Source: a virus | Lineage: Duplodnaviria > Caudoviricetes | Virus record (IMG/VR): IMGVR_UViG_3300031823_000002 | Coordinates: 57,080 to 121,079 of that record | Reading direction: 5' to 3' (one strand) | DNA: 64,000 nucleotides | Shown here: positions 8,825-64,000 of the stretch, piece after piece | How positions within the stretch are numbered: position 1 is the stretch's first letter | How the letters are laid out: the number at the start of each line of letters is the position of its first letter | The notes under the pieces: generated by a model | Seen by the model: the letters and a program-made list of their open reading frames with translations, nothing else | Database searches by the model: none | Told to the model about the DNA's origin: nothing | Made by a program: the position numbers and the translations under genes

Positions 8825-10978
8825 ATGTACTCCAACAGAACCATCGTCGATAACTTGGAGCAGTTCGAAGCGCAGGAACGGTGGATGCCTATCTACCACA
8901 CCTACGACGAAGTGCGCGAGTTCATCGCCTACATCGACTCGCTGACCAAGATCGAGTCGAACTCCAAGACCAGCTATATCTCCGTGGTGAAGCCGATCAG
9001 CAGCCAGCGCCAGAAGGACATCGCCCGCTGGGTGGAAAACGAGCAGGTGTTATGCGGCTTCGACAGCAGCTACTGGGAGCAGAACTACGCGTGGGTCTGC
9101 GACGAAAAAGGGCAGATTTTTAAATTTCATAATCGCAAATCGCAGGATGTGTTCGACGCTGTCATCGCCGACTTCGATGAGCGGCAAGTCTCCATCGAAT
9201 TACTGATCCTGAAGGCGCGGCAGGTGGGCATCTCCACCAAGACGGCGCTGAAATTTATTCACCGGCTGATGTTCATTCCGCACACGCAGGCGGTGATGGC
9301 GTCGGTGATGAAGGAAAAGTCGGAACTGATCGGGCGCATCCTCGATACCGCATACAATCGTTCGCCATGGTGGCTGGTGCCGCGCCGCATGCCGAAGCGG
9401 TCGTTCGACAACGGCTCCATCCTTTCCATTCAATCCGGCATGCAGGCCACGGGACTGGCGCAAGGCTGGACTCCCACCTGCGTCCATGTTTCCGAGCTTG
9501 CCGACGTTCCGAATCCTAAGGTCACCATCGAGGAAGGATTGTTCCGCGCCGCGCACTCATCCAGAAACCTGTTCATGGTTCTCGAAGGAACGGGTGGCGG
9601 CAACACCGGATGGCTGGCGGAGACATGGAGAGCGGCGAAAGCGGATTGGCCCAAGGGGCTGGCTCGTCTGTTTCCCATGTTCATCCCTTGGCCTATGTGC
9701 CCGGACATCTATCCGGAGCCGGACTGGCTCAGAAAATTCCCCGTGCCCGCCGAGTTCGAGAGCCGCCAGATGCATGACATCACCCGGAAGCACGTAATCA
9801 AGTGCGAGTCGTACATCCGTAACACGCCCTACCTCGCCAAAATCGCTGGCACTGGCTGGCGCATGCCGGTCGAGCAGAAGTGGTTCTGGCAGTTCTATTA
9901 CGACGCGGCCTGCAAGAACCACACGCAGAAGACGTGGTCTGCGCAGATGCCCGCCGACGATTATGAGGCGCTGACCGGCGTGCATGACACTGTCTTCGAT
10001 CCCGAAGTGCTGGCCGAGGTAGAAGACCGCATCTACGAAGTCGAATCCGACGACTACAAGCGCAAGCGCAAACAGCCGGTCGAGATATACGCCATCACCG
10101 GCCACGATGTGGACGAGGTCTTCTACCCGCCAGAAGAGCGCATTGACTGGGAAAAAGAAGTGGTACGCGTCGAGTGGGACTCGTATCGCGGCCACCACTA
10201 CGAGTGGGACATGATTCCGCTGCTCACGCTGGACGAAGACAACGAGCGGAACACTCTGGACTACCTGCTGATCTATGAGTGGCCCAAGAGGGGACAGCGC
10301 TACTCCTGCGGGATCGACACGGCAGACGGGCTGGGCAAAGAAGACGAAGAGCGCACCTGCCTGTCGGTGGCCAAAAACCGCTTTGGGGGAGACTGCGACC
10401 AGCAAGTCGCTGAGCTTACGTCGAATCGTATTAACTCCGCGCAGGTCGTCGCCTTTGCCGCCTGCGTAGGAGCGCTGTACGGGCCAGCCTGCCCGGATGC
10501 GAGGGGTATGAAGTACTGCATCGAGCAGATTCAGGGGCCGGGAGACACCTGCCAACACCAGTTGAAGATGATGGGCTTCTTCAACCACCATATCCCACGC
10601 CGCTACGACTCGAAAAAGATCAGAGACGAGTCATCGAGAAAAGAAGGCTTCTATGCCAGCACGTGGTCCATCCCCCTGCTCATGACGCGATTCGTCGAGG
10701 CAGTGAATGGCGGCTGGTACGAGCCACGGTCGAAGTGGCTCATCGAGGAATTGCGCACGCTGGAGCGCCACGTCACTACCAACAAATCAAAAATGGAGCA
10801 CCAGACCGGCAAGTTTGATGATCGCGTGCGCGGCGCGGCGATGTCGTACTTCACCGCGCACGACATGGACGTGCTGACGGATCGGGCACAGAAACGCTAC
10901 GCGCTGCCGGTGAACAAGCGGCCCGTGGCCTACAAAGCGGCGTGTAGCGCCAGTCGGGCATCCGTGGGGAATTGGTGA
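8825..10978 (+). CDS. terL: terminase large subunit
   Basis: Walker A LILKARQVGISTK, Walker B VHVSE, coupling motif LEGT, nuclease GIDTADG and DDRV. Confidence 0.93.
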   Translation: MYSNRTIVDNLEQFEAQERWMPIYHTYDEVREFIAYIDSLTKIESNSKTSYISVVKPISSQRQKDIARWVENEQVLCGFDSSYWEQNYAWVCDEKGQIFKFHNRKSQDVFDAVIADFDERQVSIELLILKARQVGISTKTALKFIHRLMFIPHTQAVMASVMKEKSELIGRILDTAYNRSPWWLVPRRMPKRSFDNGSILSIQSGMQATGLAQGWTPTCVHVSELADVPNPKVTIEEGLFRAAHSSRNLFMVLEGTGGGNTGWLAETWRAAKADWPKGLARLFPMFIPWPMCPDIYPEPDWLRKFPVPAEFESRQMHDITRKHVIKCESYIRNTPYLAKIAGTGWRMPVEQKWFWQFYYDAACKNHTQKTWSAQMPADDYEALTGVHDTVFDPEVLAEVEDRIYEVESDDYKRKRKQPVEIYAITGHDVDEVFYPPEERIDWEKEVVRVEWDSYRGHHYEWDMIPLLTLDEDNERNTLDYLLIYEWPKRGQRYSCGIDTADGLGKEDEERTCLSVAKNRFGGDCDQQVAELTSNRINSAQVVAFAACVGALYGPACPDARGMKYCIEQIQGPGDTCQHQLKMMGFFNHHIPRRYDSKKIRDESSRKEGFYASTWSIPLLMTRFVEAVNGGWYEPRSKWLIEELRTLERHVTTNKSKMEHQTGKFDDRVRGAAMSYFTAHDMDVLTDRAQKRYALPVNKRPVAYKAACSASRASVGNW

Positions 10979-50200: not shown

Positions 50201-51640
50201 AGAAGGCCATCCCTCCGGAGACTTCGTAGAGGGTTCGAGTCAAGGCCCGGTTACAATCTTCTCCACCGAGCCATCCGGGAAGCCCAAGAGCTAGTTCCTG
50301 CCGAGCCAGCGCCGGTTTCGGGACCGGGCACGCTGGAAGAAATTAAAAAAGAAACAAAACGGCTGCAAGGCCCACGCGGTTCGACTGTGCCGCTGATGCG
50401 CTCTGTGCTGTTGCCGCGCTACAAGATGATTGAAGATATCGCGGCGCATCTTGAAGACAACACCCGCAAAACTCTGGACCAACTGTATCCCGGTGGAACA
50501 ACCGCCGAGCACAGGGCCATGGTGAATCGGGCAGTGCGGATCGCCAAGGACGAATTAAAATACCAACTCGCTCAGGAGAACAGCGGCGCGGACTGGTACA
50601 AGGACGACATCAGAGGCCCCGCGAACTCCCTGATGTCGGAAATGAAATTACTGCATCCTGAACTCAGCGATCCGGTGAACGAGCGAATGTTTTTACTCCA
50701 CGTCGCGGCCACTTCGCCGGGTAAGACTGCGGCCTTCGATAACGTCAACGTCGCCGAGCAGGCGTACAACCTCTACAAGAAAAGGGGCGAGATACCGCTA
50801 CGGCAGGAAGACGGGACGCCGTGGGGAGCTTACGGACATGCTCCGCTCAAGACCGCTCAGGGCCTGCTGAGGTATTTCGATGGCGACGTAGGCAAGGCAA
50901 TGGAGTGGATGCTCACCAAGCACCCGCTGAAAGAAGTTGAGAATGTGAAGGCGAGGTCTGGCTACAGCAGGGACACTGTGAAAAATGCGCTGCCGCCAGA
51001 TTACGACCCGGATGCGGTGTACGGCGCGTACATTCTCGGCGAGAAGGTCGGCCCCTTCTTCATGAACCTGAACGGCATCTCCACGGAGTTGACCGTGGAT
51101 CGCTGGTTTATGCGGACATGGAACCGGCTGATGGGCACGCTGATCAATAGTGAAGGAAAGCTCCAAGACGTACCACGGGGCAAGAACGAGCGGGCTGCTA
51201 TGGTCGATGCCATCGACAAGCTGGGCAAGGAATTTGGCCTTGAAACCAGTCAGGTGCAAGCCGCACTCTGGTACTACGAGCAGGGACTTTACTCGCGGTT
51301 AGGACAGAGGGGAACCTTCGGAGGAACTTATGCCAGCGCAGCGAAAGATGTCTTCAACCTTCGATCTGAAGGTTTTACAAGCCAAGGCGAGAGAGATGCT
51401 GCGCAACGGGACGATGCCCTCCGAGGGAGCGCTGGAGGCGGCGCTGGCCCGCCTGCGGAAGGAGTACGGCCCGAAGATACTGAAGGCGAGGGAGTTGGAT
51501 CAACGGGAGAACTCTTCGGAGACACCTCCTTCGACTTCGGAGAGCCAAAAGTGATCCCGATTCAGGAAGCAAAGAGGATAGCTGAGCGGCAAAAGCCACG
51601 TGAGAAGCTTGCTGCCAGTCGAAAAGACAGGAGTCAGTGA
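44264..51640 (+). CDS. large polyvalent ejection-type protein (GHKL ATPase and further enzymatic domains)
   Basis: KELLQNAWDA, ISDNGSGM, GGFGIA (Bergerat fold); HEIVH; RAIHDLYGH; C-terminal KVGPF...TVDRW...VQAALW. Confidence 0.85.
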   Translation: MAPVTAFDNMDDEPRGPGTADPLGISPLSLVKRAPAKADDPLGIYPLRVLKQEAALRKPKPIALSAKKIVLPQGYTLDTPATQGKTFTAKAATPTPAAAATTASTPPPASSPLEWLSQAGTSVLHGVGLPTPSEAARKLGEHPVKEGLSYIPLIGGPQRIVEGAKALWSEAQRVKGEEDEATKALNTPGIPAPQRAAAFASHELSALPFVGRLKDEALDAAIKAGAEPVTPTEDITDPKKYLRNLKIVATSPVVLGTTAAAAAQAGLAAVDGYRALSDAYAHKASSMQPEILDPQQRALPASAEPPTIEGRVAPPAVPPSGAPRAALPAPTEGLSPAEQQVEQGILDRIKEHPETEAQVRSDLQEVPPENRQAVLDAINREGVEAYQRGDKKAAERAVQHAWILKGIMQAEARAARAARATAAAVTPAAEAAPVTPATPIVSSDPRLARRTTEPATEEPQGTLFATPETGVTPEVSPAPTRRRAPVATAEAEPAQGALFDTSEAESAITPAPVTTETAPAEEPEATTTPAPETAAEPKSGYVREVAKKVRGAKAATAAVARPSAEVEPDEKEKTIGITAPVGYVGPQGERAWVAEYGKGKEFKTKAEAKQAVAKWEAGLMPIEEFHAQSTAEPPATPTAVAPVMEPEASAAEQPATPSPNLRRQRWLYEDANRKLEELRKQNPNTPSAYRAQAGAVKKAFNRLAKQYTNEFPQDTERQGLADWLRKKPEDSIVPPVPEEAVAAEPETPAPTPPTPAPTAKPITVNRLSGMVWEVPGTDYTIHYLGDDKFDVRKGGEHIGTAPSVGDAKAQIQAHQASAWEAPTPGELGATARTNKARREALTAAPPTGPNTAVVKGALTNAGLYDPATARVVNRAVQQNLIPSPEKLDEVLRIAKTIKGLNPKTTNTAAAIEASKYGSMAALGDLAAASETDHPAGVVARAREVKTATLDTPADSYVSMARVTGGKVKIGADPKALAEVLGSSLYGKKPVEVVTKELLQNAWDAIRPEAWHPGKPPKDFVGEVTVDFDQWNRSITISDNGSGMTRKELETVFTNLGATGKLSQAGASGGFGIAKAAPFMMSKKLTVTTVTKEGGKFVEHSFTSTPDEIVGKGVEVSTRELPEWLDDKKTGTVITAQFDEDNWEPWVAERFARKSQRSLSAPGTLRVNGDEYGGTSGAKPVAALEPSPVGSMTRPGADIDLFASSETEVPSWGAVSVEVNNNGIYQFDMEVYAPVEGMQVPKRVAVNVKANVKERDPDYPFQANREAFRDEQTGRDLKELITQKIFAPQASKHRQEISDAIRDLPTIKVGATEIPVFDSGRRLTPDEMQQLQSDPAFIDLAHTINQVTQDAIAKLATADLPSNLKGLGGKIKKIGIVLSDKLHGVHITNPVDESDTYLFVNPFQSLKDDAERAASQVWHTIKHEIVHDKVKGHHETFTSTEAVVAGALGSKSELAGIQQLEDVYANPDDPERIRPDLGSAIQLYEDSRKRPEVTKDIFGGEGLAGGAAPADAGRDESRLRPSPEGTLPGYVQPLKARESGKPTEVKTEERKPEPEWLKRSAQQYISRRGSPHHEAPAGTRDARAMDIADAYEAMEHNPNDPAVKASYDAFKKDIDKQWDFAVKSGVDFEPWTKPGQPYADSAAMKADVDDNAHLFFFTGGEMPADHPLAAVDPKTGYTYNDKLRAIHDLYGHAVHGWQFGERGEENAWITHSQMFSRQAIPALTSETKGQNNWVNFGPHMRRADGTLIKKGEEGWLDRPQRPFAEQKAGLLPRRYHYRIDAPLSFISPNTLNIPGVTEAQRQFKSDIHNRFIDQAHTLADDMGMNVVVESALGSWKGGAENSIAIRYPFGADPDLVKYYEANLGRLGYQYATARFTPDVNGKDTLHQFWVQSANADASKIASLLLGNSIENSTIIPAEDGYIVTLIDPNDGLRESVRNLKNELGVKSVENNRGAAEFPGNYTDRDAAGRDFQSAIEEIERRRPSLRRLRRGFESRPGYNLLHRAIREAQELVPAEPAPVSGPGTLEEIKKETKRLQGPRGSTVPLMRSVLLPRYKMIEDIAAHLEDNTRKTLDQLYPGGTTAEHRAMVNRAVRIAKDELKYQLAQENSGADWYKDDIRGPANSLMSEMKLLHPELSDPVNERMFLLHVAATSPGKTAAFDNVNVAEQAYNLYKKRGEIPLRQEDGTPWGAYGHAPLKTAQGLLRYFDGDVGKAMEWMLTKHPLKEVENVKARSGYSRDTVKNALPPDYDPDAVYGAYILGEKVGPFFMNLNGISTELTVDRWFMRTWNRLMGTLINSEGKLQDVPRGKNERAAMVDAIDKLGKEFGLETSQVQAALWYYEQGLYSRLGQRGTFGGTYASAAKDVFNLRSEGFTSQGERDAAQRDDALRGSAGGGAGPPAEGVRPEDTEGEGVGSTGELFGDTSFDFGEPKVIPIQEAKRIAERQKPREKLAASRKDRSQ

Positions 51641-53602: not shown

Positions 53603-54340
53603 TCAAGGGGTTTTAGCCAGCTTCCACTCTTTGGGTAGCACGCCGAAGGGGTGAGTAAATTGTTCTTCTCCGACTACACCGCCCCACTTGGCGCGGTAAT
53701 ACTCACGATACAGCGGGAAAGTAACACTGTTCAGGTGGCGCAGATAGGCATCACTGTTGATCGTCTGGCTCCCATGCCCCTCCGGGCCGTGTTTTACCAC
53801 GATTCCCGAACTGATACGCTCCCAGCCAGCGAGGTCCATGCGCCGAAAATAGTCATTGTCGGAAAAGTAGGCGGCAAAGGTGGTGTCGTAACCGCCTATC
53901 GCCCCATAGACTTTTGGGTTATAGACGCATAGTACGTCGTGCAGGGTGTAGATAACTCCCCATTTAGGATGAGGAAGAGGAGGAAGAGGATTATTGATAG
54001 CGCGAGCATACTCCAGCAGCTTCTCGCATGCACCTTCCGGGATAACTGCATCGTTATGCATGTGTATGCAATAAGACTTGCCCCGGCGCAGCGTCTCTTC
54101 GAGTTCCCAGTTCATGCTCTGGGTGAATGACAGCGGAACAGGCGGACGAAAGACTTTGACCGGGGGCAACCATCTCGCATATGCGCCGTTCTCGGTCGGA
54201 ACCATGATGTTTGCGACCATGCCGTCCGGGGAATTGTCGATGATGGTCAGATCGTCGTGCAGGCAGGTGACCGAATTTACCGCGTTTATCAGCAGGTCAG
54301 GCCGGTTTACGACAGGAATAAAGGCCGCAAAGTCAGACAT
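53603..54340 (-). CDS. glycosyltransferase family 2
   Basis: IPVVNR..LL, IIDNSPD, MHNDA, IGGYD..F..YFSDND. Confidence 0.85.
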   Translation of the reverse strand: MSDFAAFIPVVNRPDLLINAVNSVTCLHDDLTIIDNSPDGMVANIMVPTENGAYARWLPPVKVFRPPVPLSFTQSMNWELEETLRRGKSYCIHMHNDAVIPEGACEKLLEYARAINNPLPPLPHPKWGVIYTLHDVLCVYNPKVYGAIGGYDTTFAAYFSDNDYFRRMDLAGWERISSGIVVKHGPEGHGSQTINSDAYLRHLNSVTFPLYREYYRAKWGGVVGEEQFTHPFGVLPKEWKLAKTP

Positions 54341-54388
54341 GGTGAGATTCTAAAATTTAATTTCAGTCGCTACCAGAGTCTTTCCGAA

Positions 54389-54904
54389 TCATGGCGCGAT
54401 CCAGATGGTGTCCACTACTTCGACGCCGGGAATCAATTCATCGACGATGCGCTTCACATCCGGCCAGCCCGCGAAGCCGTAATCGTGGCCGCAGAAGGTT
54501 CCGCCTTCGGCCAGCAGCGGTTGCCATGCCATGATGTCCTGCCGCACGTTGTATTCATCATGGGCAGCGTCGATAAAAATCAGGTCGAAACGCCGACTGA
54601 GCTTGACCGCCTTGCGAGCGGCCCAGATCGAAGCGTGGTTCATGGGGCGCACGTTGGTTAGATGGGCGGTGTTGGCGCAAAACACGTCGTAGTACCAGCC
54701 ATCCGTACCGCATTCGGACCAGATATCGACGGAGTAGACTCGCGCCTCCGTGTTCTCGGCCAGAGCGCATGTACTGCGCCCTTTGTAGCTTCCGATCTCC
54801 ACGATGCTGCCGCCCTTGGGAACCTTCGCTGCCGCTTGCGCCAGCCAGAGCAACTCGGTTTCGCTCATCCAACCCGGAATCGTCAACGCCTTCTCGATGT
54901 TCAT
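54389..54904 (-). CDS. class I SAM-dependent methyltransferase
   Basis: IVEIGSYKGRST, YSVD, FDLIFIDAAH.E..V..D, GG.FCGHDY. Confidence 0.9.
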   Translation of the reverse strand: MNIEKALTIPGWMSETELLWLAQAAAKVPKGGSIVEIGSYKGRSTCALAENTEARVYSVDIWSECGTDGWYYDVFCANTAHLTNVRPMNHASIWAARKAVKLSRRFDLIFIDAAHDEYNVRQDIMAWQPLLAEGGTFCGHDYGFAGWPDVKRIVDELIPGVEVVDTIWIAP

Positions 54905-55470
54905 ACGCCCATCCCACTCGTCGGTACGTTAATAATAGGGGCAATCTCCGGGAAAGCGATATAGGAATAACGCTCTTTGAGGGCATCACAAAAGATGCCG
55001 TCCAGCGTGTACTCATCCCGGTTGGGCCACTCCGCGATCTCCCGCTTGATGACCATGTTGGCGGTATCGACATGGCAGCAGCGCGGGTCTTCGGAGAAGA
55101 AAATCCGGCCATGGCGCAGGATGGGGAAGACGGCCCAGTCAGGACGCGCCTGATCGAGAGCGCGGTAGATATCGGTGAGCGCGTCGGAGCGCTGGAAGAA
55201 GTTGTCGTCGTCCAGATAGATGCAGTAGTCGCCGGTCGCCAGCCGCCAGCCGATCCCACGGGGCGTGTTCCCGAAATTGCCGTAACGCTTGCCCAGACAG
55301 ACGATCTGGCGGTCGGGGTGCCGGATGGAATTCAGGAGATCGGAATTAAGGGGACCGCCGTCCACGACGACGATGTGTTGCCACAGGTCCAGTTGGGTTT
55401 CGATGGACTGGCAGCAACGAAAGAGACTGTCACGCTGAAGCGTGGCGGTGATAATGCTGAACATCGGCAT
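54901..55470 (-). CDS. glycosyltransferase family 2
   Basis: FSIITAT, IVVVDGG, ATGDYCIYLDDDN. Confidence 0.88.
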   Translation of the reverse strand: MPMFSIITATLQRDSLFRCCQSIETQLDLWQHIVVVDGGPLNSDLLNSIRHPDRQIVCLGKRYGNFGNTPRGIGWRLATGDYCIYLDDDNFFQRSDALTDIYRALDQARPDWAVFPILRHGRIFFSEDPRCCHVDTANMVIKREIAEWPNRDEYTLDGIFCDALKERYSYIAFPEIAPIINVPTSGMGV

Positions 55471-55485
55471 AACAGCCTCATTGTC

Positions 55486-55788
55486 TCATTCCTTTTTGAG
55501 ATCGCCGCTTGGTTCAGCGGCTTGCTCTATGAACGTCATCATGGCCTCTGCCGCCTCCGTCCGACTGGCATTGGACGTGACATAAAACGTATCCGCGCCG
55601 CGATCAGGAAAGATCAGCAAGACGAAGCCGTAAGTGGGGAATGCTTCGGTGAGGGTGGCGGTTAGTTTTCCGCCAACCTCCTTCAGCGCGGCTGCTAGCT
55701 CAGGATCAGGACTATCACCTATGCGCATGCGAAGCTTACCTTCTCCCGAGATCGCCTTCGTGAACTTCGAAGTCTTGGGGCGTGTCAC
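55486..55788 (-). CDS. hypothetical protein
   Basis: GFVLLIF...YVTSNA.R pattern; packed operon. Confidence 0.6.
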   Translation of the reverse strand: MTRPKTSKFTKAISGEGKLRMRIGDSPDPELAAALKEVGGKLTATLTEAFPTYGFVLLIFPDRGADTFYVTSNASRTEAAEAMMTFIEQAAEPSGDLKKE

Positions 55789-55913
55789 CTTTCTTGATAT
55801 GCATCGCTAGGTGTAACGCCTGCCAGCGCCGCCGCAAGTCGGTGCGGTGCATTTCCTTCGGTGGCACAGCTTCGCAAAACATGCAAAAGGTTGGAACCCC
55901 GAAGCCGCGTCCG

Positions 55914-56813
55914 CTACGACGAATAATGCTGGCCAAGAGCGAGAATGACCCTGCGGGCAAACTGGCGTGGAGCGACATCATGCTCGTCCGCAGCATGGCT
56001 GAGGAAACCTTTGATGTTTCCGACTGCATCAGCGACTGCAATCGTTTCGGCAAACGAGGCATCATGGGAATTACCGTGCCGCTCGGTTGCGTGGACTGTG
56101 TGGGCTGCTGTTCTTTGCGTGCTGCCATTGGCGTGTATTAGCTCCTCAGTGGTGGCTGGAAGGATTTGAAGTCCGCGTGGATCGACCTGATGTTTGCGCT
56201 TAAGGTGAGCCGCCAAGAATTTCAATGCCTTAAAAGTGTTGGGGCATTGCGGACACTGAACCCTGCCGTTCGAATTCACGGCTACCTTCGGATTCACGAT
56301 GACCCCATTGGTTCGTTGTTCGATCCGTTGTTCTTGGCGACGCTCCAGCGCAACTTGAGTCTTGAGGTGATTGCGCCCAAGAACGCCATGCTTGAAACGG
56401 CGGTGCTTCCCAAGTTCGGTTGCCGTAGGAAAGTCAATCTTTCGGTGTAGGCTTTGCATGCATTCCGGACAACGAAAGATACCTTGCTGAGCAAGAGCCG
56501 CGTAGTGTCTGGCAGCTTTATCGGAAGAGACGTTTACGGTTGCCTTGTCAATCGCCGTGTTGAGCTTTTTCTTTTTTGCATAACTGGCTTTGATCGCTAC
56601 CTTGGCTTTCTTCCGTGCTTCGGGCGAATGCCAGCCGCTATCGGAGCGCCTCTTTAGCTGCGACGCTTTAATGTTTTCCTTACGTTTCTCAATAGCCTCT
56701 GGGGGCAGCGGCTCTCCGTTTCGCAAGAGATTGTGAGCCATCGCCATGTGGGACGATAAGCCAGAGTTACTCTTGAACTCTTTCTCGCATTCAGGAACTG
56801 GACATTTTGTCAT
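55914..56813 (-). CDS. protein with three C2H2 zinc fingers
   Basis: CPVPECEKEFKSNSGLSSHMAMAH; CPEC...FPTATELGKHRRFKH; CPQCPNTFKALKFLAAHLKRKH; AAGGAG SD. Confidence 0.85.
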   Translation of the reverse strand: MTKCPVPECEKEFKSNSGLSSHMAMAHNLLRNGEPLPPEAIEKRKENIKASQLKRRSDSGWHSPEARKKAKVAIKASYAKKKKLNTAIDKATVNVSSDKAARHYAALAQQGIFRCPECMQSLHRKIDFPTATELGKHRRFKHGVLGRNHLKTQVALERRQEQRIEQRTNGVIVNPKVAVNSNGRVQCPQCPNTFKALKFLAAHLKRKHQVDPRGLQILPATTEELIHANGSTQRTAAHTVHATERHGNSHDASFAETIAVADAVGNIKGFLSHAADEHDVAPRQFARRVILALGQHYSS

Positions 56814-56901
56814 TAACTCTCCTTTACTTCAATTCAGTCTGTTTACTTGTTTTTGTTCTAAATTAAATTCAAATTTTCTCAGTTTGAAGGGGAACAAGGT
56901 G

Positions 56902-58122
56902 TTACTGCTTTGCGAGTGCTTTTCGAAACCACGCGTCAAAGCGGGGCCAAACGTTACTCCAGTCGAGTTGACTAGGCTGATTCACCCTCTTCCCTAGAAA
57001 ATACTCTATCCTGCCCACCCAGTCCTTAGCGTCAAAGATCGGGCGGTAGCAGTTGTACACGCCTTCCAAATGAAGACGAACTGGATTTATTAACAGGTCT
57101 TGGTCTACAAAATCAACTGCGCCTGCGTATTTTCCGTGAATGCAGGGTGTGCCACAAAACAAGCTCTCGGCTATCGGATAGCCAAAACCCTCACCCGCTC
57201 CGATCCCAAGGGTGACATCGCAAGCCGAGTAAGCTTGGGCCATTTCGTCATCGTCCAGATAGCCCAGCGAGAACATGGCAGTGTCAGCGAGTCCGAAGTC
57301 CACCAGCAGGGCAAAGAGCGACCAGTAGTTCTCCATCTTGTCGGTATGAATCCAGAATCTCGCCTTGGGGTGATGACGATGGAGGAGCATCTCGCAAATC
57401 TCCGCCCACAGTCCCCAGTCCTTGCGGGCCTGATTGGTGGCGACCGCGCCGATCAGGATTTCGTCCTCCCGAATCGGTGGCGGCGTTGTGCCACGCAGGT
57501 TGCCGCAGCCAGTCAGCGACGTGAAGTTCTTACGCGCCTCGCTCCGGTCGCGGGGGTAGAAGATCGCAGGGTCGATGCCGTGCGGGATCGATCCTAAGTC
57601 TCTTTCCTGTGAACGCTCGTTCCCCAGAGAGCGGCGGATGATGTCTTCGCTCCACTGTCCGTAGGCCAGAATACGGTCGAAGCCTAGAAGGCTCTGGACG
57701 AGCGGGTAGGAGAGCGTGTCATGCGGCCCTTCAGCATCGACCGGATTGTAAATCCAGCGCTCGATCTTGGCGGAGGTGAGAAATTGCTTCAGAGGTTCGA
57801 CCCCGCACATTACGTTGGGCCGCGAGAACCAGCCGAGACGACCGGCGTCCCAGACAAAGAGAATGACGCCCGCCTGTTTACCGGCCCAGTCCGCCCAGAC
57901 CTCGGGAAGCGTAGGGAGGACAAAGTCGGCCATGCCTTCAACTGCGTACTGGGGAAATTTAAATCTCTGTGATCCGGGGCCACCATAGCCAAAGCTGGCG
58001 ATGCGGCAAACGTCTTTAAGATTCGCGTCAGCTCGTATAGCGATTTCGCCAGCAATTCGGCCCAATCCTGTTCCTGCGGACACAGCGTCGCTAACGATCA
58101 GCACAGGGGTTGGTGCGACCAT
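56902..58122 (-). CDS. glycosyltransferase family 4 (GT-B)
   Basis: TGLGR, IPHGID, VATNQARKD, YSACDV.....GEGFGYPIAESLFCGTP. Confidence 0.9.
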   Translation of the reverse strand: MVAPTPVLIVSDAVSAGTGLGRIAGEIAIRADANLKDVCRIASFGYGGPGSQRFKFPQYAVEGMADFVLPTLPEVWADWAGKQAGVILFVWDAGRLGWFSRPNVMCGVEPLKQFLTSAKIERWIYNPVDAEGPHDTLSYPLVQSLLGFDRILAYGQWSEDIIRRSLGNERSQERDLGSIPHGIDPAIFYPRDRSEARKNFTSLTGCGNLRGTTPPPIREDEILIGAVATNQARKDWGLWAEICEMLLHRHHPKARFWIHTDKMENYWSLFALLVDFGLADTAMFSLGYLDDDEMAQAYSACDVTLGIGAGEGFGYPIAESLFCGTPCIHGKYAGAVDFVDQDLLINPVRLHLEGVYNCYRPIFDAKDWVGRIEYFLGKRVNQPSQLDWSNVWPRFDAWFRKALAKQ

Positions 58123-58129
58123 GCAGGCC

Positions 58130-58158
58130 AGTCTAGGACGGCGTCCCTAACATGTCAA
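58130..58158 (-). promoter_or_regulatory. sigma70 promoter (leftward)
   Basis: minus strand TTGACA (58158-58153)-N17-TAGACT (58135-58130); ATG of GT4 gene 7 nt downstream. Confidence 0.75.
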
Positions 58159-58189
58159 GCGTATTTACGCATCCATACGCTTACTTGTG

Positions 58190-58218
58190 TTGACACTGAA
58201 ACCGGGTGGTTTTATTCT
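58190..58218 (+). promoter_or_regulatory. sigma70 promoter (rightward; likely reads into the TIGR locus)
   Basis: TTGACA (58190-58195)-N17-TATTCT (58213-58218); ATG 6 nt downstream. Confidence 0.8.
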
Positions 58219-58224
58219 TGAAGT

Positions 58225-58497
58225 ATGGGACAAACGGCGGTAGTAAGAAAACAGCAAACGAGGGCGACAAAAGTGGCCAACACCTTAACCGAGGCTGAGG
58301 TACTCAACATCATGAAGGCCGAACAGGGGGCACAGTCCCTCCGTGAATTCGCGGCCACGATTGGCGTCACCCCGGCATACATTTCGGACATCTACAACGG
58401 CAGGCGTCACCCCGGCGCGAAGGTTCTGGATCATTTCGGCATTGGCAAAACGAGCCAGATTATCGTAGAGTACGTATTCTTCAGAAAGAAGAAATAG
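58225..58497 (+). CDS. XRE/Cro-family HTH regulator
   Basis: SLREFAATIGVTPAYISDIYNGRRHPG. Confidence 0.88.
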   Translation: MGQTAVVRKQQTRATKVANTLTEAEVLNIMKAEQGAQSLREFAATIGVTPAYISDIYNGRRHPGAKVLDHFGIGKTSQIIVEYVFFRKKK

Positions 58498-58515
58498 CCG
58501 GGAGGGCAATCCCCC

Positions 58516-58740
58516 ATGCCCATGATCGAACTGCATGAAGGCTTCTACGTCCGTATTGGCAGCGACATCGCATTTGCGGTAGTCAAGGCAAGCGAGGACG
58601 GAAAAGCGTGCTCTGCGTTTACCGATGGCCAGTCAGCCGTGGATGGAGGCTTCCTCATCCCCTACAAGGCGTCCGAGGTTTGCGAGCAACTGAACGACGC
58701 CGAGGAAGAGCTTTACGGCGAAGAAGGGGACGAAAAGTAG
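58516..58740 (+). CDS. hypothetical protein
   Basis: GGAGG SD, acidic 74 aa. Confidence 0.65.
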   Translation: MPMIELHEGFYVRIGSDIAFAVVKASEDGKACSAFTDGQSAVDGGFLIPYKASEVCEQLNDAEEELYGEEGDEK

Positions 58741-58741
58741 G

Positions 58742-59080
58742 ATGCCGCGTCACGTCTTCGTTGGGGACGCCGTACATCTGAAGCAGTCTCCCTGTCCCGT
58801 CTGCGGCCACAAGCTCGACGGCCTCACCCCCGCCAAATTTGACACCCCTCCTGCCAAGCAGGACGACTGGGTTCCGACCAACACCTCTTTCAGTATCTGC
58901 ATCTACTGCGCATCCATGCTCCGTTTTGAGGGTGAACGCAAACTGCGCAAAGTCACCCCTGAAGACCTCGTGGAACTGCTCAACGCTGAGCCGGAACTCT
59001 TCAGCCTGCTGCATAAGATGGCCGACTTCGCGAACGGGATGATCCGGGATCGGCAGCGCAAGAACTACAGGAAAAACTGA
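58742..59080 (+). CDS. zinc-ribbon protein
   Basis: CPVC...SICIYC. Confidence 0.65.
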   Translation: MPRHVFVGDAVHLKQSPCPVCGHKLDGLTPAKFDTPPAKQDDWVPTNTSFSICIYCASMLRFEGERKLRKVTPEDLVELLNAEPELFSLLHKMADFANGMIRDRQRKNYRKN

Positions 59081-59403
59081 TGCAGGCCAGCGACAGGCTC
59101 AAAACGGTGCTGGGGCTGGGAGACGTGGTCGCCCTGTTCCCGGTGCTTAAGGATTGGAGCACGGATGAGCTACGGGCACTCCTTCGGGATATTGAGGAGT
59201 ACGCCTCTGTGAGTCACAAGGCCATCGATAGAGCGTGGGAAACGGTCGCGTTGTCGCCCAACATTTTCCTGAGTGAAGCGTTGTCGAAGACGGTTGACGA
59301 GTATCGCGACGAAAAGAAGATAGAAGTGATGCAGATTATGTCGGAAATTAGTTCGGTGGCGATGTTCTATTTGAACCAACGTGGAATTAAAATTCCCGAG
59401 TGA
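59080..59403 (+). CDS. hypothetical protein
   Basis: TGATG coupling; stop codon lies inside the first array repeat. Confidence 0.65.
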   Translation: MQASDRLKTVLGLGDVVALFPVLKDWSTDELRALLRDIEEYASVSHKAIDRAWETVALSPNIFLSEALSKTVDEYRDEKKIEVMQIMSEISSVAMFYLNQRGIKIPE

Positions 59404-61325
59404 ACCAATGGGTATGAGAGCGCCAGAGCCTGAGAGTGAAAACCAATAGTTGTGAGCGTGCCAAAGTTTGGGAGTGAACCATACTAATTGCGAGTGCCAT
59501 GATCAATGAGTGAACCGGGCAGGACGAGCGTGCCATGAAGGACGAGTGAACCACATCCAGCGCGAGTGCCATGATTGAAGAGTGAACCAATAATTGGGAG
59601 AGCACCAGAAAGAGGGAAGTGAACCAACGCTGGGAAGAGTGCCAAAGTACGGGAGTGCCAACCATATCCTCTGAGGGTGCCAAATATCGAGCGTGAACCA
59701 AATACGACGTGCGTGCCAATGTAGATGAGTGGGAACCAATATGTGGGAGCGTGCCATGAAACAAGAGTGGGAAAACCAAGTCTGCTGAGAGGGCCAAGAA
59801 AGGTGAGTGCAGCCAAATCTGATGAGAGTGCCAAAGGTGGTGAGCGAAAACCAGAGTGCTTGAGCGTGCCCGGAAAAGTGAGTGAAACCGACTCTACAGA
59901 GGGTGCCAAAATACGGGAGTGAAACCGACTACGGCGTGAGCACCAAAACCCATGAGTGAACCGGAGTTTGTGAGGGTGCCATATCCGGGGAGTGAACCAA
60001 GTGCAAGGAGAGTGCCAAGGTTCATGAGTGAACCACAAACAGCGAGAGCACCATAGGAGTTGAGTGCAACCACGAAGGCTGAGAGTGCCATGAACTCCGA
60101 GTGGAAACCAAATTACGGGAGCGTGCCATATCCGGCGAGTGAACCAGCGAGTAGCGCGAGCGCCAAAGTCTGGGAGTGAACCGATGAGCATGAGCGTGCC
60201 AGAGGTGAGGAGTGAAAACCAATGATGTTGCGAGTGCCGAAAGTCAAGAGTGCAACCCATGTCAAGTGATAGCGCCAAGGGTTGAGAGTGAAACCATATT
60301 TGCCGCGAGTGCCACGCATCGAGAGTGAACCATACATGATGCGAGCACCATGTAATGTGGAGTGAGCCGAAGTAATTGCGAGCGCCAACTACTCAGAGCG
60401 AACCGAATCAGGAGAGAGTGCCAAGAGACGAGTGTGAACCAAATTCATGGAGAGTGCCAAGGGTCGGGAGTGTCCAGCCAGACATTCCGCGAGCGCCAAA
60501 GTCTGGGAGCGGAAATACAACCATGAGCTATGCGAGTACCGGGAGTCCCGAGTGAACCAATGAAGAATGAGAGTGCCATGATTAAGGAGTACCAACCAAA
60601 GGAAGTGAGAGTGCCATTTAGCTGGAGTGAGCCATACGTGACGCGAGTGCCATAGTACCTGAGCGAACCAATGAAACGGAAAGCACCAAAAGGACAGAGT
60701 GAACCAGTTCTTGCGCGAGCACCAAAATCGATGAGTGAACCAGATAACCGGCGAGTGCCAGAAGATGAAGAGTGAACCATCATCGAGGAGTGTGCCAAGG
60801 TTAATGAGTGAACCGTACAGAGGAGAGCACCATAGTTGAGGAGTGAACCAGCGTCAGTGAGCCGCACCACAGTGGAAGAGTGAACCGAGAAAGCGGAGGA
60901 GCACCAACGGAGTGGGAGTGAACCAACGTCAAGGAGAGTGCCAATGTGCCAGAGTGCAACCATGATCGTGGAGAGCGCCACTGAACTGGAGTGAACCAAT
61001 CATGCCGCGAGCACCAAGACGAGTGAGTGAACCATCAACAAAGCGAGTGCCAGAAGTAGGGAGTGAACCGATACTGAAGAGTGCGCCCAGAGATGCGAGT
61101 GAACCACAAGGTATGCGAGCACCATAGGCTAAGAGTGAACCAAACATAGCGGAGAGCACCATGAAAAGGGCGTGAACCATCAAATCGGAGAAGCACCAGA
61201 AGACGAGAGTGAACCAGAAATCCAGAGAGCACCATATGATGAGAGTCGAACCAAGCTGTGAGGGAGCACCAGAGCGGAGAAGTGAATCAAAATCGTAGAG
61301 AGCACCATCGTTCAGGAGTGAAAAT
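59398..61325 (+). repeat. TIGR-like dual-spacer array 1 (52 units of ~36 nt plus a partial unit)
   Basis: alternating GAGTGAACC (length-variable) and GMGAGYRCC (almost always 9 nt) repeats, each followed by a variable ~9-nt spacer; parsed by hand. Confidence 0.9.
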
Positions 61326-61328
61326 CAG

Positions 61329-62222
61329 ATGAGCACCACGCCGATCATTGAAGCCATGGAGCCGCTCAAACGGCTCACGAAAGATTTAGCCAAAGCAGCC
61401 GTCACCCTGTCACCCCACGAAGCGCGGTTTCTGGTAGACGCGTATTACATCATGCAGCACAACCGTATTTCCGCTGCGCATCAGGTACGCACGCTGGACA
61501 AAGGCGATGAGCCGCACAGCGTGATTGACTGGTTCGCAGTACAGAGCGAGATGCTGGAGAATCAGGTCAAACGCGCTCTGGATAAGTGGACCGACGGCCA
61601 GCCGGTCGCGGTCTGGGCGAAGTCGATCTGCGGAATCGGGCCGGTGATCGCGGCAGGGCTGGAAGCCAACATCGATATCAGCCGCTGCGAAACGGCAGGA
61701 CATATCTGGTCGTTTGCTGGACTGAACCCGGATATGAAGTGGGAGAAGAAAACCAAGCGGCCTTACAACGCTTCACTCAAAACCCTGTGCGCCTTTAAGC
61801 TGGGCGAGTCGTTCGTCAAGGTGCAGTCCAACGACAACGACATCTACGGCAGAGTCTTCGTCACCAGAAAGAAACAGGAAGCAGAGTGGAATGAAGCCCT
61901 GAAGTTTGCCGATCTGGCCAAAGAGAGAGCCACCAGCGTTAACAAGAAAACCGATGCCTACAAGGCGTACAGCGTGGGCAAGCTGCCCCCGGCCCACATC
62001 CATGCGCGGGCACGGCGCTACGCGGTAAAACTGTTTTTAGCGCATTACCATATGGTGGCCTACTTCGTGCATCACCAGAAGCTGCCGCCCTTTCCCTACG
62101 CCTTCTCGCACCTCGAAGGACACATCCACTTCATCGCGCCACCCCACGCCGATCTGGTGGATGGCCTGCTGCCTGCGCTCAAAAAGTACGAAGACGAACT
62201 GCGCAAGCGCGGGGAAAAATAA
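61329..62222 (+). CDS. Nop-domain / IS110-Tnp-like RNA-binding protein without a nuclease domain (TasA-like)
   Basis: coiled coil then SICGIGPVIAAGL...IWSFAGLNP...YNASLKT...G..FVK...Y...K...HIHARARRYAVKLFL; no N-terminal DEDD RuvC; no SG catalytic serine after AGLxP; lies between two arrays. Confidence 0.85.
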   Translation: MSTTPIIEAMEPLKRLTKDLAKAAVTLSPHEARFLVDAYYIMQHNRISAAHQVRTLDKGDEPHSVIDWFAVQSEMLENQVKRALDKWTDGQPVAVWAKSICGIGPVIAAGLEANIDISRCETAGHIWSFAGLNPDMKWEKKTKRPYNASLKTLCAFKLGESFVKVQSNDNDIYGRVFVTRKKQEAEWNEALKFADLAKERATSVNKKTDAYKAYSVGKLPPAHIHARARRYAVKLFLAHYHMVAYFVHHQKLPPFPYAFSHLEGHIHFIAPPHADLVDGLLPALKKYEDELRKRGEK

Positions 62223-62237
62223 AAATCCAAGCGACTG

Positions 62238-63309
62238 GAGAGCACTATAAAGAGGGAGTGAATCATAAATTGGGAGAGTGCCAGACATGGTGAGTGAACC
62301 ATGATTGCGGAGAGCACCATAAAAGAAGAGTGAACCAGAGTTCGAGTGAGCACCAAGAGTCCAGAGTTCGAGTGAACACCAAGAGTAGAGAGTGAAACCA
62401 GAAATCCGGAGAGTGCCAAGAATAAAGAGTGAACCCAGTGGTGGGAGCGTACCAATGATCTGGAGTGAATCCAACATCGCTGCGAGTGCCAGAGTACAAG
62501 AGTGAACCATCATCGGAGAGAGGACCATCTTACGGGAGTGAAAACCAAACATCGCGAGAGCACCCAGATCAGTGAGTGAACCAAGAAGCGTGGGAGTACC
62601 AGTGTCACTGAGTGAACCTAGTGGTGGGAGAGCGCCAATGTGTTGGAGTGAACCAGACAACCGGCGAGCACCATAGTGCAGGAGTGAACCACGGTCGAAG
62701 AGAGTGCCAAAAAGAGCAGAGTGAGCCATACGTGAAGCGGGTGCCATAGTACCTGAGCGAACCAACTAGGCATGCGAGTACCAATTCAAGGGAGTGAGCC
62801 AAGTCCCAAGAGAGCGCCACGAGGCAGGAGTTGAACCAGAATTGTTGCGAGCACCACATTAAGCGAGTGAACCAGCTTTAATGCGAGTACCAAAGCCAGC
62901 GAGTGAACCTGTGTACCAGAGGGCACCCAGATGAGTGAGTGAACCAATTATCACGCGAGCACCAGCGTCAAGGAGTGAACCATCATCAAAGCGAGCACCA
63001 CCGCACGGGAGTGAACCATACATCGAGAGAAGCACCAGAGAATCGGCGTGAAACCAAATTTGAGGAGAGTACCAGAGTTTGGGAGTGAGCCATTCAAAGA
63101 GAGCGTACCAAAGTGTAGGAGTGAACCGCACCACGGGAGAGTACCAGAATCAGGGAGTGAAACCATCTCCAACGCGAGCACCAATGTGCCTGAGTGAACC
63201 AGCGATCACGGCGAGCACCAAGACCAGAGAGTGAACCATCAATGAAGCGAGTGCCCAAACGAGAGAGTGAACCATCTCCCATGAGAGTGCCAGAAGTAGG
63301 GAGTGAGCC
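62238..63309 (+). repeat. TIGR-like dual-spacer array 2 (28 units plus partial end units)
   Basis: same two repeats and 9-nt spacers as array 1; first full unit at 62256. Confidence 0.9.
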
Positions 63310-63572
63310 AAAGAAGTATCCCGGAGAAGAGAATGGTTAAGATCGTTTTTGCCGCAACTTTGCCCAACGAATTGTTGCAGTCATTTTTGCAAACGATTCG
63401 CGATTTTGATATGGAGCACGACCCCAACCATGAGGGCAAGGTCCAGATTGAAATGTTGACCGAGTCTGACTGGCCGGTGGACAAGATGGCCGAGGTTCTG
63501 AGTTCGTTCACCCCCAAGCCGCAATTTATGTACGTCGAAAAATTCGATAAAACAGGCGAGTCTAAAAAATGA
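63303..63572 (+). CDS. hypothetical protein
   Basis: ORF right after array 2; start GTG 63303 or ATG 63333. Confidence 0.6.
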   Translation: MSQRSIPEKRMVKIVFAATLPNELLQSFLQTIRDFDMEHDPNHEGKVQIEMLTESDWPVDKMAEVLSSFTPKPQFMYVEKFDKTGESKK

Positions 63573-63901
63573 TCCACATGTTACAAGTCCTGTGCGGTCC
63601 AAAGCGGCACGCAATCTACGGCATCATGTACGACGACAAGGACATATCTCCAGCGGACGCGATGAAGGGGCTGGAGCTTATGGTCGAGGAAGATATAGCC
63701 CTTGGCAAACTCAATCGCCGCTGCGAAGTTTGCGACAAGCCTGTATTTAAATTCTTATACGAAGACGGCATCAGCAAAGAACAGGACTGGGCGAAGGCAA
63801 AAGCAATTTCTGAGCGGTTACAGGCCGAACAGATGGTGGCACGAGAATTCGCGCTGCGTTGGAAAGGGAGATGCACGTGGTCTGCGTGGATTGCTTCGTA
63901 A
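63569..63901 (+). CDS. hypothetical protein (Cys-containing)
   Basis: ATGA overlap; LC..RHA...CEVC pattern. Confidence 0.6.
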   Translation: MIHMLQVLCGPKRHAIYGIMYDDKDISPADAMKGLELMVEEDIALGKLNRRCEVCDKPVFKFLYEDGISKEQDWAKAKAISERLQAEQMVAREFALRWKGRCTWSAWIAS

Positions 63902-64000
63902 AGCTCGTTCAGGAGCACACCGTCATACTCGGCGGATCGATACGGCACGGAGTGGTGATCGAATGAGCATGATGTGGTTTGGGAAATGGCACCCTGCACC

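What the first reader, a model, noticed from the sequence alone, without database searches (positions are those of the whole stretch)
59398..61315. Repeat asymmetry predicts which repeat is the loop and which is the processing edge
Seen: the GAGTG..ACC repeat tolerates internal insertions (GAGTGAAAACC 59434, GAGTGCCAACC 59653, GAGTGGGAAAACC 59765, GAGTGTCCAGCC, GAGCGGAAATACAACC). The GMGAGYRCC repeat stays at 9 (rarely 10) nt, and spacers stay at 9+/-1 nt. Both repeats typically begin G(A/C)G and end CC, and most spacers start with A, giving a twice-per-unit CCA. Inference: each unit has two equivalent protein-binding boxes (dimer symmetry). The elastic repeat is the internal loop and the rigid repeat is the cut site. 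Fixed spacer length argues for selection on a guide rather than a neutral satellite.
Basis: partly seen in the sequence, partly recalled or inferred. Interest (0 to 1): 0.7.

Follow-up and report, generated by a model that had tools for sequence, protein, structure and literature searches.

The report
Phage TIGR-TasA guide RNA arrays

Summary
Window 59398-61320 holds 53 copies of GAGTGAACCA (E) alternating with 52 copies of GMGAGYRCCA (L), separated by 8 variable bases. A second array lies at 62225-63310. A third lies outside the window.

The gene between the two window arrays (61329-62222) encodes a nuclease-less Nop-domain protein. Its model matches the solved TasH and TasR structures best. 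An identical sequence is listed in Table S1 of the TIGR-Tas paper, PMC12045711. So this is a dual-repeat TIGR-TasA system, which is already known.

The loop/edge assignment is reversed. The elastic repeat E carries every published mark of the edge repeat:
- a 4-nt gap with complementary ends;
- covarying pairs 3:8 and 4:7 across 45 related loci;
- the outermost position, often as a half repeat, at 96 of 116 array ends;
- the same xyG^Ay'x'CA layout as the mapped TaTasR and SpTasH edges.

Most insertions sit exactly at that G^A cut site. RNA ends could not be checked because no RNA run was listed. No targets were found. Interest is low to moderate: three arrays with 94 guides in all, 31% of edges elastic.

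The parts
59080..59403 (+). Upstream ORF of 107 aa with no family match. Its TGA stop codon lies inside the first E repeat of array 1.
   Evidence: ORF list. No Pfam or PHROG match. Sequence read.
59398..61320 (+). TIGR array 1. It has 53 edge-type repeats (GAGTGAACCA, elastic at G5^A6) alternating with 52 loop-type repeats (GMGAGYRCCA), with 8-nt variable spacers. That makes 52 predicted 36-nt tigRNA units. It starts with a full E and ends with the 5' half-edge GAGTG at 61316-61320, 8 nt before the tasA start codon.
   Evidence: Parses. TRF. Motif counts.
61329..62222 (+). tasA, 297 aa: coiled coil (helices 29-57 and 64-89) plus Nop domain, with no nuclease domain. Y257 and H265 align with the tigRNA-processing dyad Y289/H296 of SpTasH.
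   Evidence: Pfam Transposase_20 E 7.6e-5, residues 98-135 only. phrog_4285 E 4e-45. AF2 model pLDDT 86.9. Foldseek top hits are TasH 9w04_B at 1.5e-6 and TasR 9mty_B at 2.3e-6. Profile search: TasR 1.2e-23, TasH 1.9e-13. Y257 is nearly invariant and H265 invariant in 23 homologs. An identical sequence is in Table S1 of PMC12045711.
62225..63310 (+). TIGR array 2. It begins with the 3' half-edge ATCCA (62225-62229) directly after the tasA stop codon TAA (62220-62222). Then come 59 repeats from the L at 62238 to a full E at 63301-63310, about 29 units. A 26-nt tandem duplication at 62335-62393 breaks the register once.
   Evidence: Sequence read. Parse. TRF.

Best explanation
This is a dual-repeat TIGR-TasA system of a 121-kb tailed phage.

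Arrays and units. Three arrays lie on the coding strand: two flank tasA in the window and one is about 62 kb away. Together they encode 94 guide units. Each unit is predicted to mature into a 36-nt tigRNA, 5'-AACCA-N8-GMGAGYRCCA-N8-GAGUG-3'.

Assignment. The elastic repeat GAGTGAACCA is the edge repeat. It is cut between G5 and A6. Its two halves, taken from neighbouring copies, pair with each other (3:8 and 4:7) at the ends of one tigRNA. The rigid repeat GMGAGYRCCA is the internal loop repeat.

Mechanism. A TasA dimer binds box D (xG) and box C (CCA) of the edge and of the loop, one on each protomer. TasA probably cuts the precursor itself with its Y257/H265 dyad. The two spacers then pair with opposite strands of an adjacent 16-18-bp DNA site. 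Because TasA has no nuclease, the likely outcome is binding and repression, not cleavage.

Why the edge is elastic. Extra bases at the centre of the edge are tolerated because they fall at the cut, between two neighbouring ribonucleoprotein units.

Shown here: the anatomy, the family membership of the protein, the covariation and the array-end pattern. Inferred from the literature: transcription, processing, the exact cut site, DNA binding and repression.
For: Protein.
- The fold and profile match solved TasH and TasR before IS621.
- No DEDD or nuclease domain was found.
- An identical sequence is listed among the Tas proteins in Table S1 of PMC12045711.

Array geometry.
- 10-nt repeats with 8-nt spacers give an 18-nt half period and a 36-nt unit.
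- This is the geometry of the SpTasH tigRNA in Table S3, AGCCA-N8-AAGACAACCA-N8-AAGCG.

Conservation.
- 65 of 81 related loci scanned (80 plus L001 and L002, less the duplicate L032) have TRF-detectable arrays next to the gene.
- 56 non-redundant parses (55 related loci plus this genome) gave 45 with two clearly different repeat types.

Edge assignment.
- (a) Gap end bases: U..A in E against A..R in L. The rule is published.
- (b) Across the 45 loci, E-type 3:8 is G:C 28, A:T 9, T:A 4, G:T 1, mismatch 3. E-type 4:7 is C:G 39, T:A 6, and the centre is GA in 45 of 45. L-type 3:8 is G:C in 41 of 45, and 4:7 is A:A in 35 of 45.
- (c) Positions 4 and 7 enclose only 2 nt, so they cannot pair within one copy. 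This fits pairing between different edge copies, as drawn for TasR (legend of Fig. 6G).
- (d) Within this genome, all 6 E copies with C at position 4 follow an E copy with G at position 7. That gives G:C between copies, whereas C:A within the same copy would be a mismatch in all 6.
- (e) Array ends, 59 arrays: at the left end E-type 50 (31 as 3' half only) against L-type 9. At the right end (57 counted) E-type 46 (27 as 5' half only) against L-type 11. All six ends of this genome's arrays are E-type.
- (f) By eye, about 21 of the 28 longer E copies carry the extra bases between G5 and A6 (list).

Function from papers.
- 36-nt processing in the middle of the edge.
- Tandem-spacer targeting.
- The Y/H dyad cleaves the edge.
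- TasA acts as an RNA-guided repressor.
Against: - There are no RNA data for this phage: no RNA run was listed. Transcription, processing and the cut site therefore rest on homology.
- In the TasR structure the loop interior is A-rich and contacts no protein. In stem-loop arrays the loop equivalent can vary in size. An elastic loop is therefore not impossible. 10 of the 28 longer E copies are simply extra A's.
- Elasticity is not a family trait. In the other loci 22 of 759 E-type and 23 of 735 L-type copies deviate from 10 nt.
- 20 of 116 array ends, 3 of 45 3:8 consensus pairs and 11 of 56 loci (ambiguous types) do not fit cleanly.
- The six C4/G7 cases are partly paralogous and are not six independent events.
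- No + strand terminator-like site follows the arrays, unlike the typical loci in the paper.
- No target was found in the phage's own genome or in 605 kb of related loci above a permuted-pair control.
Confidence: 0.85

Rival explanations
1. It is a TIGR-type guide array, but GAGTGAACCA (elastic) is the internal loop and GMGAGYRCCA (rigid) is the edge that gets cut.
For: - In the TasR structure the loop interior is A-rich and makes no base-specific protein contacts.
- Loop equivalents in stem-loop arrays can vary in size.
- The E interior is UGAA, and 10 of the 28 longer copies only add A's.
- 9 left and 11 right array ends among related loci end in the L-type.
Against: - The published phase rule gives the opposite assignment.
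- Compensatory changes at 3:8 and 4:7 occur only in the E-type.
- The 4:7 pair encloses 2 nt and can only form between copies. This is borne out by 6 of 6 C4 copies following G7 copies.
- Half repeats at array ends are E-type 58 times and L-type 6 times.
- The mapped TaTasR and SpTasH edges have the E-type layout, and their loops have the L-type layout.
Confidence: 0.1
2. The arrays act as DNA, not RNA. They would be iterated binding sites (centromere-like or origin-like iterons) for the helix-hairpin-helix protein encoded between them.
For: - The arrays flank the gene.
- The only Pfam hit is a helix-hairpin-helix segment of Transposase_20.
- The TIGR paper notes ParB-like genes beside some TasA loci.
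Against: - The protein's fold and profile match RNA-binding Tas proteins.
- All 49 exact E copies are on one strand, the coding strand.
- The inter-copy base-pair covariation is a feature of RNA.
- No ParB-like neighbour was found among the seven flanking ORFs scanned.
Confidence: 0.03
3. The arrays are a neutral or decaying satellite, or they encode a repeat protein.
For: Long open frames exist on the minus strand, up to 264 aa.
Against: - Repeat positions are nearly invariant while the spacer positions between them are nearly random at fixed length.
- Period changes of 1-6 nt break every reading frame.
- The + strand has TGA in every E copy.
- The same architecture is kept beside homologs of only 50-60% identity, with different repeat sequences.
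Confidence: 0.02

Closest known systems
Dual-repeat TIGR-TasA systems (Faure et al. 2025, PMC12045711; FpTasA is the characterised example)
   Same: - Solo Nop-domain protein with a coiled coil.
- Arrays upstream and downstream of the gene.
- Two alternating short repeats with box D and box C, fixed short spacers and a 36-nt unit.
- A half edge repeat at array ends.
- An identical protein sequence is in the paper's Table S1.
   Different: - Array size. There are 52, 29 and 13 units here. The paper gives 'most often 5 to 15'. TIGRFinder reports 65,635 tigRNAs in 4,126 dual-repeat arrays, about 16 per array by my division.
- One array is about 62 kb from tasA.
- 31% of edges carry extra bases.
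- No terminator-like site follows the arrays.
SpTasH TIGR of Salicola phage CGphi29
   Same: - 10-nt repeats and 8-nt spacers.
- The mature guide is AGCCA-N8-AAGACAACCA-N8-AAGCG (Table S3), so the edge is xyG^Ay'x'CA and the loop is xAGAxxACCA, as in E and L here.
- The Y/H processing dyad aligns.
   Different: TasH has an N-terminal HNH nuclease and cuts DNA. This protein has no nuclease domain. Identity in the structural alignments is about 19-21%.
TaTasR TIGR (PDB 9mty)
   Same: - Best sequence-profile match, E 1.2e-23.
- Edge UGCG^AGCCA with an extra pair at the gap ends.
- The dimer reads edge and loop symmetrically.
   Different: - TasR carries a RuvC nuclease.
- It uses 9-nt repeats and 9-nt spacers.
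- It has W where this family has Y257 (alignment).
IS110-family bridge-RNA recombinases (IS621, PDB 8wt6)
   Same: The coiled coil and Nop/Tnp RNA-binding domain are shared. This is why databases call the protein a 'transposase'.
   Different: - No DEDD/RuvC domain and no single two-loop bridge RNA.
- The match is much weaker: E 3e-5 by profile, TM about 0.4.
Archaeal box C/D sRNPs (Nop5)
   Same: A dimeric Nop protein with two guides per RNA, flanked by C and D boxes, as argued in PMC12045711.
   Different: No K-turn/L7Ae or fibrillarin partner. The target is DNA, not RNA. The guides are arrayed and cut out of a precursor.

Membership tests
TIGR-Tas (dual-repeat) | Tas protein with coiled-coil and Nop RNA-binding domain | tested here: met
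   - AF2 model pLDDT 86.9.
- The ten best Foldseek hits are all TasH or TasR chains, E 1.5e-6 to 1.3e-5.
- Profile search: TasR E 1.2e-23, TasH 1.9e-13.
TIGR-Tas (dual-repeat) | Two distinct alternating 8-12-nt repeats with about 9-nt spacers next to the tas gene | tested here: met
   E and L alternate strictly. 155 of 190 repeats are 10 nt and 173 of 187 spacers are 8 nt (9 nt in the TIGRFinder register). The arrays abut both ends of the gene.
TIGR-Tas (dual-repeat) | Box D at the start and box C (CCA) at the end of both repeats | tested here: met
   Among modal-length copies:
- G3 is present in 66 of 66 E and 87 of 89 L.
- C8, C9: E 63 and 66 of 66; L 89 and 88 of 89.
- A10 is present in 54 of 66 E and 82 of 89 L.
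TIGR-Tas (dual-repeat) | Edge repeat with an extra base pair between half edges, supported by covariation | tested here: met
   - E-type 4:7 is U:A here and C:G in 39 of 45 loci.
- E-type 3:8 is G:C, A:T or T:A in 41 of 45 loci.
- 6 of 6 C4 copies follow G7 copies.
TIGR-Tas (dual-repeat) | [quoted passage not shown] | tested here: inconclusive
   All six array ends here are E-type. Three of them are half repeats. In relatives, half repeats at array ends are E-type 58 times and L-type 6 times. However, no + strand terminator-like site was found in 57500-64000.
TIGR-Tas (dual-repeat) | Y/H dyad in the C-terminal loop that processes pre-tigRNA | tested here: met
   Y257 is nearly invariant and H265 invariant in 23 homologs. 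In the profile alignment they align with the Y..GH of SpTasH. The dyad is described in passages read.
TIGR-Tas (dual-repeat) | Array transcribed and processed into 36-nt tigRNAs bound by Tas | not testable with these tools
   No RNA holder was listed. The 36-nt length follows only from the geometry 5+8+10+8+5.
TIGR-Tas (dual-repeat) | Tandem-spacer recognition of a DNA target | not testable with these tools
   The host is unknown. There were no matches better than permuted spacer pairs in the phage's own genome or in related loci.
TasA subtype | No HNH or RuvC domain fused to the Nop domain | tested here: met
   The protein is 297 aa. Its only Pfam hit is Transposase_20 at residues 98-135. The model consists of helices from residue 18 onward, starting with the coiled coil.
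IS110 transposase | N-terminal DEDD (RuvC-like) catalytic domain and a bridge RNA | tested here: not met
   No DEDD domain hit. phrog_2199 aligns only its positions 128-266 to residues 7-135. IS621 is a weak match. No Rfam family matched in 58000-64000.
CRISPR-Cas | One repeat of about 25-36 nt, spacers of similar size, and cas genes | tested here: not met
   There are two 10-nt repeats and 8-nt spacers. No Cas family appeared among the neighbours scanned.

The most novel reading that the evidence does not exclude
The extra bases sit in 31% of the edge repeats, mostly exactly at the G^A centre. They may be junction scars. On this reading TIGR arrays gain, lose or shuffle whole tigRNA units by breaking and rejoining at the middle of the edge repeat. 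The unit that moves would then be 3' half-edge, spacer A, loop, spacer B and 5' half-edge.

Three observations fit this:
- The pairing partners G7 and C4 stay together across one unit rather than within one repeat copy.
- The same series of variant edges recurs in array 3 and in array 1 with diverged spacers.
- Half edges mark array ends.

If true, this would bear on how TIGR arrays grow, which the 2025 paper calls an open question.
Probability: 0.12. Interest if true: 0.6.

Novelty: already known. Interest (0 to 1): 0.3.

Why it matters
The locus is a natural TIGR-TasA system of a kind published in 2025, so it adds no new kind of system. Its value lies in the detail.

- It carries one of the larger guide sets seen in my sample. 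Its 105-repeat array is the longest among the 56 parsed loci.
- The guides are spread over three arrays, one of them far from tasA.
- It is a natural experiment in edge-repeat length. About a third of its edges carry 1-6 extra bases at the predicted cut.

That makes it a convenient substrate for two questions: how Tas measures its cut, and whether tigRNA length is fixed from box C, from box D or from both. In this family, length tolerance marks the edge, not the loop.

Tried and rejected
- RNA evidence: no RNA holder was listed for 59300-63400.
- Rfam at E up to 1 on 58000-64000: no match.
- tblastn of the protein against the phage collection: no match at 1e-5. Relatives came from IMG/VR instead.
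- Coding reading: rejected. The + strand has TGA in each E copy, and length changes of 1-6 nt shift every frame.
- Terminal-repeat reading. The arrays lie near the record's end, but the 'direct terminal repeat' is an exact 127 bp. I take this as a probable assembly overlap, so I gave position near the end no weight.
- Own-genome targets. I tested 78 units in the E phase and 77 in the L phase, with two target geometries. The best hits had 2-5 mismatches of 18, the same as permuted spacer pairs.
- Targets in 605 kb of related loci: the same negative result.
- Using target hits to tell the two phases apart therefore failed.
- Pairing between neighbouring copies across all loci. This gave only a modest signal: forward 75 of 108 against reverse 64 of 108 at 4:7, and 87 against 74 of 106 at 3:8. 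It was noisy because variant copies were mis-assigned. I rely on the cleaner counts.
- Not attempted: scanning public collections with single 18-mers. By my estimate chance matches would outnumber real ones in collections of hundreds of gigabases.
- Dropped before counts:
  - L003 (a piece of the window itself) and L032 (same contig as L001).
  - 16 loci without TRF arrays.
  - 9 redundant or unparsed loci.
  - 11 loci with ambiguous repeat types: L008, L034, L042, L045, L048, L049, L052, L056, L063, L065, L080.
Full report
**1. The observation**

The region is a strictly alternating array on the + strand. I use 10-nt repeats that include the trailing A, and 8-nt spacers.

Array layout:
- Array 1 runs from 59398 to 61323 with 105 repeats (53 E = GAGTGAACCA, 52 L = GMGAGYRCCA).
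- Array 2 runs from 62238 to 63310 with 59 repeats.
- A third array of 26 repeats lies at genome 54152-54617, about 2.5 kb upstream of the window start.

Lengths:
- E is elastic. Of 96 copies, 66 are 10 nt, 28 are longer (11-16 nt) and 2 are shorter.
- L is rigid. Of 94 copies, 89 are 10 nt.
- Spacers are 8 nt in 173 of 187 cases.

Exact GAGTGAACC occurs 49 times on the + strand and never on the - strand of the 121,079-bp genome, always inside the arrays. By my arithmetic a random 9-mer would occur about 0.5 times per strand.

Spacers are diverse. 152 of 156 8-mers are distinct, and only a few units are duplicated.

**2. What it is**

The gene between arrays 1 and 2 (61329-62222, 297 aa) is labelled 'transposase' in databases:
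- Pfam Transposase_20, E 7.6e-5, residues 98-135 only.
- phrog_4285, E 4e-45.
- Source names.

It has no DEDD domain. The evidence that it is a Tas protein:
- An AlphaFold2 model built on 23 homologs has pLDDT 86.9.
- Its ten best Foldseek matches are all chains of TIGR-TasH and TIGR-TasR complexes, E 1.5e-6 to 1.3e-5. IS621 follows at E 2.7e-3.
- A profile of the family finds TasR (9mty) at E 1.2e-23, TasH at 1.9e-13 and IS621 at 3e-5.
- A full-text search led to Faure et al. 2025 (PMC12045711). I read its sections on discovery, processing, targeting, structure, stem-loop arrays and discussion, two methods sections and the figure legends.

That paper describes the same anatomy:
- A Nop-domain protein (TasA when it has no nuclease) flanked by arrays of two alternating 8-12-nt repeats with about 9-nt spacers.
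- Processing into 36-nt tigRNAs cut in the middle of the 'edge' repeat.
- An internal 'loop' repeat.
- Two spacers that pair with opposite DNA strands.

An identical protein sequence is listed in the paper's Table S1. The system is therefore already known, and this protein is already catalogued.

**3. Conservation**

- The family is large: 4,350 proteins at E <= 0.001 among the candidates scored.
- Of 81 related loci scanned (the 80 plus L001 and L002, less the duplicate L032), 65 have TRF-detectable arrays of period about 36 next to the gene.
- 56 non-redundant parses (55 related loci plus this genome) succeeded.
- All share 10-nt repeats and 8-nt spacers, but the repeat sequences differ between loci.

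**4. Which repeat is the edge**

The evidence points the other way.

(a) Published phase rule.
- The TIGRFinder preprint is 10.64898/2026.09.09.750476. I read the abstract, sections 5, 10, 12 and 21, and some passages.
- It assigns the edge to the repeat whose 4-nt gap between box D and box C has complementary end bases.
- E has UGAA (U..A). L has AGYR (A..R).

(b) Covariation across loci. In the 45 loci with two clearly different repeat types:
- The E-type reads GA-x-y-G-A-y'-x'-CA.
- Its 3:8 pair is G:C in 28, A:T in 9, T:A in 4 and G:T in 1, with 3 mismatches.
- Its 4:7 pair is C:G in 39 and T:A in 6. This type was picked out by 4:7 complementarity, so 4:7 is not an independent test.
- The L-type keeps G:C at 3:8 in 41 of 45 and is A:A at 4:7 in 35 of 45.

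(c) Geometry. Positions 4 and 7 enclose only two bases, so they cannot pair within one copy. They can pair between the 3' half of one edge and the 5' half of the next, as drawn for TasR (Fig. 6G legend).

(d) Pairing between copies within this genome. All 6 E copies with C4 follow an E copy with G7. That is a G:C pair between copies, whereas each C4 copy has A7 itself, a mismatch. Some of the six are paralogous.

(e) Array ends. An array of n units needs n+1 edges.
- Among 59 arrays, the outermost repeat at the left end is E-type in 50 (31 as the 3' half only) and L-type in 9.
- At the right end (57 counted) it is E-type in 46 (27 as the 5' half only) and L-type in 11.
- In this genome all six ends are E-type: half edges AACCA (array 3 start), ATCCA (array 2 start) and GAGTG (array 1 end), and three full copies.

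(f) Mapped guides from the literature. Table S3 of the 2025 paper gives synthetic mature guides.
- TaTasR: AGCCA-N9-UGAAACCCA-N9-UGCG.
- SpTasH: AGCCA-N8-AAGACAACCA-N8-AAGCG.
- Their edges are thus ..GCG^AGCCA, the same xyG^Ay'x'CA layout as E. The SpTasH loop resembles L.

(g) Position of the insertions. By eye, about 21 of the 28 longer E copies carry their extra bases between G5 and A6, the predicted cut. Three have them one base to the left, and four have them elsewhere (list).

**5. Points against, or open**

- No RNA data exist for this phage.
- The TasR loop is A-rich and free of protein contacts. Loop equivalents vary in size in stem-loop arrays. 10 of the 28 longer E copies only add A's.
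- Elasticity is peculiar to this genome. Elsewhere 22 of 759 E-type and 23 of 735 L-type copies deviate from 10 nt.
- 20 of 116 array ends and 11 of 56 loci do not fit or are ambiguous.
- No + strand terminator-like site follows the arrays. Array 1 ends 8 nt before the tasA start codon, so the arrays are probably read through with the flanking genes. This is inference.

**6. Mechanism**

Inferred from the papers:
- The arrays are transcribed with the + strand genes.
- TasA dimers bind box D and box C of one loop and of two half edges.
- The precursor is cut at G5^A6.

The cut is probably made by TasA's own Y257/H265.
- These residues align with the Y289/H296 dyad shown to process pre-tigRNA in SpTasH. 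I read passages of PMC13421893.
- The primary paper, Yang et al., Mol Cell 2026, was seen only as a reference.
- Y257 is nearly invariant and H265 invariant in my alignment.

The predicted product is 5+8+10+8+5 = 36 nt. TasA has no nuclease. A TasA was shown to act as an RNA-guided repressor in the preprint. From the second preprint, 10.64898/2026.08.11.744272, I read passages only.

Extra bases at the edge centre lie between adjacent ribonucleoprotein units, which would explain why they are tolerated.

Targets remain unknown. Neither the phage's own genome nor 605 kb of related loci hold matches better than permuted spacer pairs.

**7. Verdict**

This is a known kind of system and a catalogued protein.

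Features worth recording:
- 94 guide units in three arrays, with a 52-unit array, the longest of the 56 loci parsed.
- An array about 62 kb from tasA.
- Unusually elastic edges.

Noticed in passing
genome G000:C1:54135-54617 (outside the window, about 2.5 kb before its start): A third TIGR array of 26 repeats (13 units) sits between two unrelated + strand genes, about 62 kb from tasA. It starts with the half edge AACCA. It shares a series of variant edges (GAGTGAGCC, GAGCGAACC, GTGTGAACC, GAGTGTC(C)AGCC) with window 60360-60480, but the spacers have diverged.
   Followed up: partly
window 62335-62393: A 26-nt tandem duplication (2.3 copies, 90% matches, TRF) inside array 2 puts two E-type repeats next to each other. 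It is the only break of alternation in that array.
   Followed up: no
window 61329-61338 and 62220-62229: The tasA start codon lies in an L-like word (ATGAGCACCA), and the first 8 residues are disordered in the model (pLDDT below 50). The tasA stop codon TAA is followed within two bases by a half edge. In at least seven related loci (for example L001, L015, L021, L025, L046, L053, L077) TAA directly abuts the half edge GCCA.
   Followed up: partly
window 59398-63310, spacers: Spacers are A/G-rich and C-poor, and the bias depends on position. In the spacer after L, C is 2-14% at positions 1-4 and 7-8, and G is 46% at position 3 and 52% at position 7. The cause is unknown. It may be a target preference or avoidance of pairing with the G-rich repeats.
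   Followed up: no
genome ends (window 63874-64000 and genome 1-127): The record's 'direct terminal repeat' is an exact 127 bp. That looks like an assembly overlap of a circular or circularly permuted genome rather than a physical end.
   Followed up: no
related loci L010, L022, L034, L068, L071; L081; L065: Some relatives use CCG instead of CCA as box C in both repeats. L081 has a 34-nt period with a shortened second repeat. L065 gave the same consensus (GAGAGAACCA) for both repeat types, so its phase could not be assigned.
   Followed up: no
related loci L016, L017, L019, L020, L013, L055 and others: In loci whose edge has A:T or T:A at positions 3:8, the loop keeps G:C. The first base pair of box D/box C therefore differs between edge and loop. 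The 2025 paper states that these motifs almost always co-vary between the two repeats.
   Followed up: no
window 8816-10978, 41830-44262, 44264-51640, 53603-58122: Phage context:
- terminase large subunit;
- a tail or internal virion protein with a transglycosylase domain;
- a 2,458-aa ORF;
- a minus-strand cassette of glycosyltransferase-like and methyltransferase-like genes just upstream of the + strand block (HTH gene at 58225-58497) that carries the TIGR locus.
   Followed up: no
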